64,000 nt of DNA from Escherichia coli O157:H7. GTDB taxonomy: Bacteria > Pseudomonadota > Gammaproteobacteria > Enterobacterales > Enterobacteriaceae. The translations under genes and the position numbers were made by a program. The notes beneath the pieces are model-generated. The model searched no databases. It worked only from the letters and a program-made list of their open reading frames with translations, and had not been told where the DNA came from. Positions 57,582 to 57,768 of this stretch are shown in pieces. The DNA lies in the NCBI RefSeq assembly GCF_013167455.1, contig NZ_CP038328.1. One strand, given 5' to 3'. Within the stretch, counting starts at the first letter, position 1. Each line of letters opens with the position of its first letter.

Positions 57582-57729
57582 ATGCTCCTTTTAGTTGCAA
57601 AGGTTGTGCTGAATGAAGATAAAAAGAGGCAACTTATTGCTCTGAATATAGTGCGTAAGGAGATGAATAAATATCAAAAATCGCTCAATATGCCCGTGTG
57701 AGTGGATATATGTAGCGCGGGTTGCGATA

Positions 57730-57754
57730 ACAGGGCAAGTTTCGCCCTGTTTTT
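57730..57754 (+). terminator. Terminator-like hairpin in the elaD-rbn intergenic region (T-run on + strand)
   Basis: acagggc-aagtttc-gccctgt followed by tttt; lies 15 nt beyond the rbn 3' end on the other strand. Confidence 0.4.
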
Positions 57755-57768
57755 AATAATAAGCAGAG

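What the first reader, a model, noticed from the sequence alone, without database searches (positions are those of the whole stretch)
57582..57768. Plus-oriented terminator-like hairpin with no upstream plus-strand gene between elaD and rbn
acagggc-aagtttc-gccctgt-tttt at 57730-57754 looks like an intrinsic terminator for rightward transcription, yet both neighbouring genes are on the minus strand. It may terminate an antisense or short divergent transcript from the elaD promoter region, or act as a U-tract-independent terminator for rbn.
Basis: seen in the sequence. Interest (0 to 1): 0.2.

Follow-up and report, generated by a model that had tools for sequence, protein, structure and literature searches.

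The report
Reverse-facing terminator hairpin after rbn
A small GC-rich hairpin just past the end of the RNase BN gene (rbn) is real and conserved; it most likely caps the rbn message, and its run of T's on the opposite strand would also stop stray antisense transcripts leaving the neighbouring elaD gene, which makes it an ordinary kind of element.

Summary
The hairpin ACAGGGC-AAGTTTC-GCCCTGT followed by TTTT at 57730-57754 is exactly as described. It is not chance: a strict scan finds 7 such sites in the 64-kb window against 0.15 expected. It is the only one without a same-strand gene upstream. It lies 18 nt after the rbn stop codon.

Its stem is not tied to elaD. Escherichia ruysiae-type genomes lack elaD but carry the identical stem 17 nt after rbn. 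Their loop and flanks differ, and the rest of the spacer is only 39% identical. The conserved element is therefore a hairpin at the 3' end of rbn.

On the rbn strand the hairpin is stable (-16.7 kcal/mol), has no U-tract, and is followed by C-rich RNA. A published Rho-termination region lies about 77 nt downstream in K-12. This matches the protective stem-loops described for Rho-terminated mRNAs.

It makes a modest intrinsic terminator for the opposite strand. Published K-12 data show antisense RNA inside elaD that falls 13-fold past the elaD start. No precise 3' end has been mapped at the hairpin on either strand. This is an ordinary, unannotated instance of a known kind of element, and its interest is low.

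The parts
57729..57751 (.). Hairpin: 5' arm 57730-57736 (ACAGGGC), loop 57737-57743, 3' arm 57744-57750 (GCCCTGT), plus the extra pair A57729-T57751. It forms on RNA from either strand.
   Evidence: The stem is identical in E. ruysiae-type genomes. The core is identical in 3934 of 4497 E. coli records.
57750..57754 (+). Run of five T's directly after the stem on the plus strand. It provides the U-tract for rightward transcription and reads as an A-run upstream of the hairpin on the rbn strand.
   Evidence: T-score 3.94 and d-score +4.0. Absent in E. ruysiae-type genomes, which read GATA on the rbn-sense 5' flank. Shortened to four T's in L093.
57650..57729 (-). C-rich, G-poor RNA immediately 3' of the hairpin on the rbn strand; a candidate rut region.
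   Evidence: C:G is 15:6 in the first 40 nt and 23:11 in 80 nt. The published Rho-termination region at K-12 2382642(+) maps to window 57652(-). Dar & Sorek 2018 place rut sites right after U-less protective stem-loops.
57769..58686 (-). rbn (RNase BN/Z) coding sequence. Its stop codon lies 18 nt upstream of the hairpin in the rbn sense.
56358..57581 (-). elaD (deubiquitinase), AT-rich at 33-37% GC. Its antisense strand is the likely source of plus-strand transcripts reaching the hairpin.
   Evidence: Antisense 3'-end counts in K-12.
57541..57549 (+). Extended -10-like element TGaGATAAT inside the first codons of elaD, with a predicted start near 57556. It is a candidate promoter for an RNA antisense to the elaD translation start.
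   Evidence: Consensus scan only. Conserved across alleles, but it lies in coding sequence. No TSS data could be obtained.
57645..57652 (.). Overlapping -10-like hexamers: TATAGT on the plus strand (57647-57652, start near 57659) and TATATT on the minus strand (57650-57645, start near 57638; candidate elaD promoter).
   Evidence: Consensus scan only.
57663..57689 (-). Spacer segment attgagcgatttttgatatttattcat, shared with the rbn-downstream spacer of elaD-less Escherichia. It shows the spacer is colinear with the ancestral rbn 3' flank at least to this point.

Best explanation
The hairpin is a conserved 3'-end element of rbn that happens to be readable from both strands.

On the rbn (minus) strand it forms a stable, U-less stem-loop 18 nt after the stop codon. 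RNA polymerase reads through it, Rho loads on the C-rich RNA just beyond it, and termination occurs within roughly the next 100 nt. 3'-5' exonucleases then trim back to the hairpin, which protects the rbn mRNA. This is inferred from the anatomy plus one published Rho-region call.

In the E. coli allele the rbn-sense 5' flank reads AAAA where E. ruysiae reads GATA, which puts a run of five T's after the stem on the plus strand. That gives the same hairpin the canonical form of a modest Rho-independent terminator for rightward transcription. It should therefore stop whatever antisense or pervasive transcripts escape Rho inside AT-rich elaD, coming from yfbK read-through or from intragenic promoters, before they run antisense into rbn. 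This second step is a physical inference. It may be a by-product rather than a selected function.
For: 1. The site is real and non-random, and it is the only orphan among 7 strict terminator-like sites in the window.

2. The stem ACAGGGC/GCCCTGT is identical in E. ruysiae-type genomes, which lack elaD. It sits 17 nt after rbn there against 18 nt in E. coli. The loop and flanks differ, and the rest of the spacer is 39% identical. This indicates constraint on the stem and ties it to rbn rather than elaD.

3. The minus-strand hairpin is -16.7 kcal/mol and is followed by UAUCGCAACC, with no U-tract (d-score -22). C:G is 15:6 in the next 40 nt.

4. Adams et al. 2021 (PMC7815308, supplementary file 2) list a Rho-termination region at K-12 2382642(+), which is window 57652(-), about 77 nt past the hairpin. 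Its Rho score is 3.24 and p = 5e-5.

5. Dar & Sorek 2018 describe exactly this architecture for Rho-terminated E. coli mRNAs.

6. On the plus strand the T-score is 3.94 and the d-score is +4.0, comparable to the weaker true terminator at 4076(-) in this window.

7. The same Adams table lists 2382764(-), which is window 57530(+), antisense to elaD. 3'-end counts are 274 upstream and 21 downstream untreated, and 503 and 139 with bicyclomycin (Rho score 3.6, p = 7.6e-9). Plus-strand RNA therefore exists and dies out in this neighbourhood, and a 3.6-fold drop remains when Rho is inhibited.

8. Three other hairpins in this window sit between convergent genes with a U-tract on one side only. A gene ending at a hairpin whose U-tract faces the other way is therefore commonplace.

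9. The common variant G57744A (about 246 records) gives C-A on plus-strand RNA but keeps G-U on rbn-strand RNA.
Against: No 3' end between K-12 2382500 and 2382599 on either strand appears in the curated Term-seq lists for three growth conditions. It is also absent from the TERMITe and SMRT-Cappable-seq supplements that could be searched.

The Rho-region calls come from 800-nt windows. The call at 2382642(+) could reflect bicyclomycin-induced elaD promoter activity rather than rbn read-through.

The plus-strand U-tract is short, five U's followed by AAUAAU, and it is shortened to four in one allele. It is absent in E. ruysiae-type genomes.

The stem shows no compensatory changes, so RNA pairing is not proven over DNA-level conservation. 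Within E. coli the stem is not clearly more conserved than its flanks, in a small sample chosen for its variants.

Several lineages do without this hairpin: phylogroup-B2-like E. coli, E. albertii, and a lineage in which rbn and yfbK overlap.
Confidence: 0.55

Rival explanations
1. The hairpin is the dedicated terminator of a discrete plus-strand transcription unit. This would be a 100-200 nt cis-antisense or divergent small RNA, starting near 57556 or 57659, that overlaps the elaD 5' UTR and start codon and regulates elaD.
For: The form is canonical on the plus strand only. Promoter-like elements lie at 57541-57549 (TGaGATAAT) and 57647-57652 (TATAGT, overlapping a minus-strand TATATT, as in bidirectional promoters). 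A second hairpin at 57692-57722 forms only on plus-strand RNA, through G-U pairs.
Against: Only 21 RNA 3' ends were counted in the 800 nt that include the hairpin in untreated K-12. No Term-seq peak is listed there. No Rfam family matches; the best hit is DapZ at E = 9.8, 17.9 bits against a gathering score of 56. The U-tail has only 5 U's. The T-run is missing in E. ruysiae although the stem is kept. The second hairpin varies among strains. The small plus-strand ORFs lack usable ribosome-binding sites. No TSS data were obtainable.
Confidence: 0.12
2. The hairpin is itself the Rho-independent terminator of rbn. It would act with a degenerate U-tract (UUAUCG), possibly helped by NusA or NusG, and the plus-strand T-run would merely be its upstream A-tract.
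For: The position 18 nt after the stop is typical. The hairpin is most stable on the rbn strand. E. ruysiae-type genomes have UUUCAUC after the stem on the rbn strand.
Against: The d-score is -22 and the T-score 2.15, well below the positive controls in this window. The Rho-region call lies just downstream. C-rich RNA follows the stem.
Confidence: 0.15
3. The conserved feature is a DNA palindrome, ACAGGGC-N6/7-GCCCTGT, bound by a dimeric regulator of rbn or elaD, and not an RNA structure.
For: Both arms are conserved at the sequence level with no covariation, while the loop and flanks diverge.
Against: The spacing between the arms differs, 7 nt against 6 nt, which a dimeric operator would tolerate poorly and an RNA loop tolerates easily. 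It sits at a gene's 3' end, about 90-115 bp from the nearest candidate promoter. No regulator is known, and none was found in the literature searches.
Confidence: 0.05
4. The hairpin is a functionless relic. It would be debris of the region's turnover, for example derived from the GATAACAG left by the lost cheV promoter, drifting neutrally, with the T-run arising by accident in AT-rich DNA.
For: The spacer is highly labile: there are at least four unrelated versions in Escherichia. Several lineages lack the hairpin. No mapped 3' end exists. The GATAACAG flank matches the sigma-28-type -10 region upstream of cheV in Citrobacter and Enterobacter.
Against: The stem is 14/14 identical between E. 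coli and E. ruysiae-type genomes against 39% identity in the surrounding spacer. Strict sites of this kind are expected 0.15 times per window.
Confidence: 0.1

Closest known systems
Protective stem-loops at the 3' ends of Rho-dependent E. coli transcripts (Dar & Sorek 2018, PMC6061677)
   Same: It is an energetically stable stem-loop just after the stop codon with no U-rich tail. C-rich, rut-like RNA follows immediately, and a bicyclomycin-sensitive region lies nearby.
   Different: No steady-state 3' end has been mapped at its base for rbn. It also carries a T-run on the opposite strand, which is not part of that description.
Rho-independent (intrinsic) terminators of E. coli
   Same: On the plus strand it has a GC-rich 7-8 bp stem, a 7-nt loop and five U's directly after the stem. 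The d-score is positive and within the range of true terminators in the same window.
   Different: There is no same-strand gene or known RNA upstream. The U-tract is short and followed by A-rich sequence. No 3' end has been mapped. The T-run is not conserved outside E. coli.
Bidirectional terminators between convergent genes (Ju, Li & Liu 2019, Nat Microbiol; cited from memory and from the reference list, paper not held)
   Same: A single hairpin serves the ends of transcription from both directions. E. albertii and phylogroup-B2-like E. coli, which lack elaD, have yfbK and rbn convergent.
   Different: It is asymmetric: the U-tract is on one side only. The convergent partner is now 1.3 kb away (K-12) or deleted (O157:H7), with elaD in between.
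Cis-antisense RNAs overlapping a 5' UTR (for example SymR/symE and GadY; from general knowledge)
   Same: A plus-strand RNA ending at this hairpin would be fully complementary to the elaD leader and start codon.
   Different: No promoter, 5' end or stable transcript has been shown.

Membership tests
Rho-independent terminator (plus-strand orientation) | GC-rich stem of about 5-14 bp with a loop of 3-8 nt | tested here: met
   7-8 bp stem with 5 G-C pairs and a 7-nt loop; -12.8 kcal/mol.
Rho-independent terminator (plus-strand orientation) | U-rich tract directly after the stem | tested here: met
   TTTTT followed by AATAATAAG. T-score 3.94 and d-score +4.0, at the weak end of the in-window controls, which range from -14 to +38. 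The d-score formula was recalled from d'Aubenton-Carafa 1990.
Rho-independent terminator (plus-strand orientation) | Lies at the end of a same-strand transcription unit | tested here: not met
   No plus-strand ORF of 80 aa or more ends within 200 nt upstream. The six other strict sites all have one. Only antisense RNA of unknown origin is documented.
Rho-independent terminator (plus-strand orientation) | RNA 3' end mapped 7-9 nt after the stem, insensitive to Rho inhibition | tested here: inconclusive
   No entry at K-12 2382500-2382599 in the curated Term-seq tables. Expression is low, so absence is not decisive.
Protective stem-loop of a Rho-dependent terminator (minus strand, rbn) | Stable stem-loop shortly after the stop codon, not followed by a U-rich sequence | tested here: met
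   -16.7 kcal/mol with a 10-bp stem, followed by UAUCGCAACC; d-score -22.
Protective stem-loop of a Rho-dependent terminator (minus strand, rbn) | C-rich, G-poor rut region immediately downstream | tested here: met
   C:G is 15:6 in 40 nt and 23:11 in 80 nt.
Protective stem-loop of a Rho-dependent terminator (minus strand, rbn) | Read-through increases when Rho is inhibited | tested here: inconclusive
   Published region at K-12 2382642(+), Rho score 3.24, p = 5e-5. The call uses 800-nt windows and is confounded by possible induction of elaD.
Protective stem-loop of a Rho-dependent terminator (minus strand, rbn) | Steady-state 3' end at the base of the stem; shortened or destabilised when the stem is removed; dependent on PNPase and RNase II | not testable with these tools
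   No rbn 3' end is listed in the accessible tables.
Bidirectional intrinsic terminator | A-tract and U-tract flanking the stem, so that both strands read hairpin plus U-tract | tested here: not met
   The U-tract is on the plus strand only.
Any curated RNA family (Rfam 15) | Match at or above the family's gathering score | tested here: not met
   The best overlapping hit is DapZ at 17.9 bits against a gathering score of 56, E = 9.8.
Dispersed repeat (REP/BIME-like) | Multiple copies per genome | tested here: not met
   Median of one place per genome for both the 101-nt and 37-nt queries.

The most novel reading that the evidence does not exclude
After E. coli acquired the AT-rich, antisense-transcribed elaD gene next to rbn, two point changes (GATA to AAAA on the rbn-sense flank) turned an older rbn 3' hairpin into a reverse-facing intrinsic terminator. 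This would be a selected insulator shielding a housekeeping RNase gene from transcription leaking out of a foreign gene. Alternatively, a cis-antisense RNA covering the elaD translation start ends at this hairpin and controls the deubiquitinase effector.
Probability: 0.15. Interest if true: 0.35.

Novelty: new member of a known kind. Interest (0 to 1): 0.12.

Why it matters
The practical weight is small. The result explains an apparently mis-oriented terminator without invoking a hidden gene. It gives rbn a plausible 3'-end mechanism: Rho termination plus a protective hairpin. It also offers a clean natural example of a conserved stem acquiring a U-tract on the other strand in one lineage. That example could be used to test how easily insulators against antisense or pervasive transcription arise next to horizontally acquired AT-rich genes. 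For annotation, it is a caution that a hairpin plus T-run facing the wrong way next to a gene's stop codon usually belongs to that gene's 3' end.

Tried and rejected
1. The hairpin as part of an elaD insertion. I first inferred this because homology with elaD-less E. coli (N50, L005) and E. albertii breaks at the rbn stop codon. I withdrew it when E. ruysiae-type genomes, which have no elaD, showed the same stem.

2. Inversion of the hairpin between E. coli and E. ruysiae, suggested by GATAACAGGGC appearing on opposite strands. Flank and loop matches are tied between the direct and inverted alignments. Longer-range colinearity favours the direct alignment. This is unresolved and not claimed.

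3. A donor context on plasmids or phages. The only hits are chromosomal E. coli sequences filed as plasmids, and there are no phage hits.

4. More distant ElaD homologues. The best 120 hits were all E. coli-like at 91% identity or more, so they gave no outgroup.

5. Published end-mapping data. Thomason 2015 and Ju 2019 are not held. No supplements are held for Dar & Sorek 2018, the 3'-UTR Term-seq paper, Conway 2014, Sy 2020, the iRAP paper or Singh 2014. The Cappable-seq, SMRT-Cappable-seq and TERMITe supplements have no entries for this locus.

6. Small plus-strand ORFs: 50 aa from a TTG start at 57549, and 25 aa from a GTG start at 57702. They have no plausible ribosome-binding site. The AAGGAG at 57657-57662 abuts its ATG with no spacing. 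The Sakai small-gene paper does not mention the locus.

7. Conservation within E. coli as evidence of selection. The sample was chosen for its variants, and the stem is not clearly more conserved than its flanks.

8. Read-through from the nuo operon as the source of plus-strand RNA in O157:H7. nuoN has a strong terminator of its own at 54681-54703, with d-score +38.

9. A sigma-28 promoter on the plus strand at GCGATAA. The -35 region matches only 3 of 8 positions (my reading).

Full report
**Context.** The window is E. coli O157:H7, 100% identical to O157 chromosomes. The local gene order is nuoN(+), yfbM(-), a frameshifted remnant(-), elaD(-) at 56358-57581, rbn(-) at 57769-58686, and elaA(+). 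K-12 has the same rbn-elaD spacer of 187 bp. Window coordinate = 2440294 minus the K-12 coordinate.

**Observation.** The reported hairpin is present exactly as described. ACAGGGC (57730-57736), AAGTTTC, and GCCCTGT (57744-57750) are followed by TTTT, and the stem extends by one pair, A57729-T57751. As RNA it folds at -12.8 kcal/mol on the plus strand. On the minus strand G-U pairs lengthen the stem to 10 bp, giving -16.7 kcal/mol. The built-in terminator scan did not list it, because with the maximal stem only four T's remain in its tail window.

A stricter scan of my own required a perfect 7-bp stem with at least 4 G/C, a loop of 3-8 nt, and then TTTT. It finds seven sites in the 64 kb against 0.15 expected in shuffles. 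Six of these sit within 90 nt downstream of a same-strand ORF. Site 57730(+) is the only orphan, and the stop codon of rbn on the other strand lies just beyond it. The element is single-copy, occurs in about 83% of complete E. coli genomes, and is unannotated.

**Directionality.** I scored the hairpin and tail with a hairpin-energy/U-tract discriminant; the d'Aubenton-Carafa formula was recalled from memory, so it is used only for ranking against in-window controls. The plus orientation scores +4.0 (T-score 3.94). That is like the weaker of the true terminators here, which range up to +38. The rbn orientation scores -22, with the tail UUAUCGCAACC. Three other hairpins in this window sit between convergent genes with a U-tract on one side only. 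Examples are nuoN/yfbM at 54681 and the sites at 33217 and 26028. A gene ending at a hairpin whose U-tract faces away is therefore common. What is unusual here is only that the partner gene is missing.

**Whose hairpin is it?** I first thought it had arrived with elaD. elaD is AT-rich, 33-37% GC against about 50% in the flanks. About 900 E. coli genomes lack the element. In elaD-less E. coli (N50, L005) and in E. albertii, yfbK and rbn are convergent, with unrelated spacers of about 125 nt and no such hairpin.

That idea failed when I fetched other Escherichia. E. ruysiae-type genomes (L098, L100, L101, L105, L106) have rbn proteins 90-91% identical to the query. Their order is rbn, a 447-nt spacer, yfbM, then nuoN, with no elaD. 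They carry ACAGGGC-aaaatc-GCCCTGT 17 nt after the rbn stop. Both arms are identical to those of E. coli. The loop and flanks differ, and the remainder of the aligned spacer is only 39% identical.

A further segment of the E. coli spacer (57663-57689) is also shared. The spacer is therefore colinear with an older rbn 3' flank. The stem is thus a constrained element of the rbn 3' end that predates, or is independent of, elaD. It folds well in E. ruysiae too, at -15.9 kcal/mol with z = -4.6.

The T-run, by contrast, is specific to the E. coli allele. The rbn-sense 5' flank reads GATA in E. ruysiae and E. albertii but AAAA in E. coli. E. ruysiae has no U-tract in the antisense orientation and only UUUCAUC in the rbn orientation.

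**Mechanism on the rbn strand.** The anatomy is a stable U-less stem-loop 18 nt after the stop codon, followed at once by C-rich, G-poor RNA. C:G is 15:6 in 40 nt and 23:11 in 80 nt. Adams et al. 2021 list a Rho-termination region at K-12 2382642(+), which is window 57652(-), about 77 nt past the stem. The 3'-end counts upstream/downstream are 57/31 untreated and 46/81 with bicyclomycin, for a Rho score of 3.24 and p = 5e-5. I verified the column order by recomputing the score. Dar & Sorek 2018 report that Rho-terminated E. coli mRNAs end just after stable stem-loops lacking U-tracts, with rut sites immediately downstream. They also report that these structures protect against PNPase and RNase II. 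The rbn hairpin fits that description feature by feature. What is missing is a mapped rbn 3' end.

**Mechanism on the plus strand.** The same Adams table lists 2382764(-), which is window 57530(+), classed as antisense to elaD. 3'-end counts are 274 in the 800 nt upstream (inside elaD, antisense) and 21 in the 800 nt downstream, which includes the spacer and hairpin. With bicyclomycin the counts are 503 and 139, for a Rho score of 3.6 and p = 7.6e-9. Plus-strand RNA therefore exists and mostly ends by Rho action around the elaD 5' end. A 3.6-fold drop persists without Rho, which is compatible with an intrinsic backstop.

There are plausible sources for this RNA. One is yfbK read-through in K-12-like genomes: the yfbK/elaD hairpin (56307-56342 here) is very stable at -29 kcal/mol but U-less on both sides. 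Another is promoter-like sites inside AT-rich elaD. nuo read-through is unlikely, given the strong nuoN terminator. Any polymerase arriving on the plus strand meets a GC-rich hairpin plus five U's, so partial termination is expected on physical grounds.

The evidence against a dedicated RNA is as follows:
- Only 21 3' ends fall in the downstream window.
- No Term-seq 3' end lies at K-12 2382500-2382599 in three conditions.
- There is no Rfam match.
- No plus-strand ORF is convincing.

**Variation.** The 37-nt core is identical in 3934 of 4497 records. About 246 records carry the linked pair G57726T + G57744A. This changes the loop-closing pair to C-A on plus-strand RNA but to G-U on rbn-strand RNA. 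That is a small hint that the rbn-strand structure is the one maintained. One allele shortens the T-run to four. Within E. coli the stem is not demonstrably more conserved than its flanks, in a sample biased towards variants. No compensatory substitutions exist, so RNA pairing against DNA palindrome recognition is not formally separated. The 7 to 6 nt change in arm spacing favours an RNA hairpin.

**Verdict.** The element is real and ordinary. It is best read as a conserved rbn 3'-end hairpin, probably the protective stem-loop of a Rho-dependent terminator. In E. coli it has also acquired a U-tract on the other strand, so it would double as a modest terminator of antisense transcripts leaving elaD. 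It is an unannotated new member of known kinds, and interest is low. The most novel reading still open has a probability of about 0.15. In that reading the T-run is a selected insulator against, or the end of a regulatory antisense RNA for, the horizontally acquired elaD gene.

Noticed in passing
window 56307-56342: A perfect 16-bp hairpin, TTCGACCAGTCAGCA-tatt-TGCTGACTGGTCGAA (-29 kcal/mol, z about -7), lies between the elaD stop and the yfbK 3' remnant. It has no U-tract on either side, so it is probably a protective stem-loop shared by both convergent genes. It is weakly similar to the spacer hairpin of E. albertii.
   Followed up: partly
window 55329-56300 vs L004 5996-8832: O157:H7 lacks most of yfbK and yfbL relative to K-12. 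Only the last roughly 100 nt of yfbK (about 56200-56297) and a frameshifted yfbL remnant (55329-55946) remain. E. ruysiae-type genomes keep a similar yfbL remnant next to yfbM.
   Followed up: partly
L007 3919-4987; also L102, L103 and most loci L007-L047: In Citrobacter, Enterobacter, Salmonella and relatives, rbn is followed by a co-directional cheV-type gene (CheW + receiver domains, Pfam E = 2e-25 and 1.5e-11). That gene is preceded by a sigma-28-like GCCGATAA. Escherichia lacks this gene. The GATAACAG that flanks or forms the start of the Escherichia hairpin may be debris of that promoter.
   Followed up: partly
window 56358-57581 vs L004 4714-5925: ElaD of O157:H7 and K-12 are only 87.7% identical in protein, while the adjacent spacer and rbn end are about 98% identical in DNA. 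elaD is either evolving fast or has been exchanged by recombination.
   Followed up: no
L001, L086, L088, L092, L002, L104: elaD has been lost several times independently. Routes include an IS1-associated deletion (B2C), deletions leaving a 111-bp elaD 5' stub next to yfbL (MS21199, SCU-387, HCM-28C-2), and a different yfbK-rbn spacer (N50). One metagenomic lineage has rbn and yfbK overlapping tail-to-tail by 4 nt. The rbn-nuoN interval is a hotspot of gene turnover.
   Followed up: partly
window 57692-57722 (+): A second hairpin just upstream of the terminator-like one forms only on plus-strand RNA, because it relies on G-U pairs. Its first base and two stem positions vary among strains.
   Followed up: partly
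window 57657-57662 and 57585-57590 (-): The elaD upstream region contains CUCCUU about 65 nt upstream of the elaD Shine-Dalgarno sequence AAGGAG. The two could pair and mask the ribosome-binding site if the elaD transcript starts far enough upstream. The annotated ATG (57581) is only 3 nt from the Shine-Dalgarno sequence, while a second in-frame ATG (57578) is 6 nt away.
   Followed up: no
window 57726 and 57744: Two SNPs, G57726T and G57744A, always occurred together in the four genomes examined. They probably account for the roughly 246 records in the 90-95% identity band. They cannot pair with each other, so the linkage looks clonal rather than compensatory.
   Followed up: partly
window 4058-4081, 16589-16611, 26003-26028, 31985-32009, 33217-33240, 54681-54703: These are the other strict hairpin + TTTT sites in the window. 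All lie at the 3' ends of same-strand ORFs, and several sit between convergent ORFs. The site at 4058/4076 has U-tracts on both strands and so looks truly bidirectional.
   Followed up: partly
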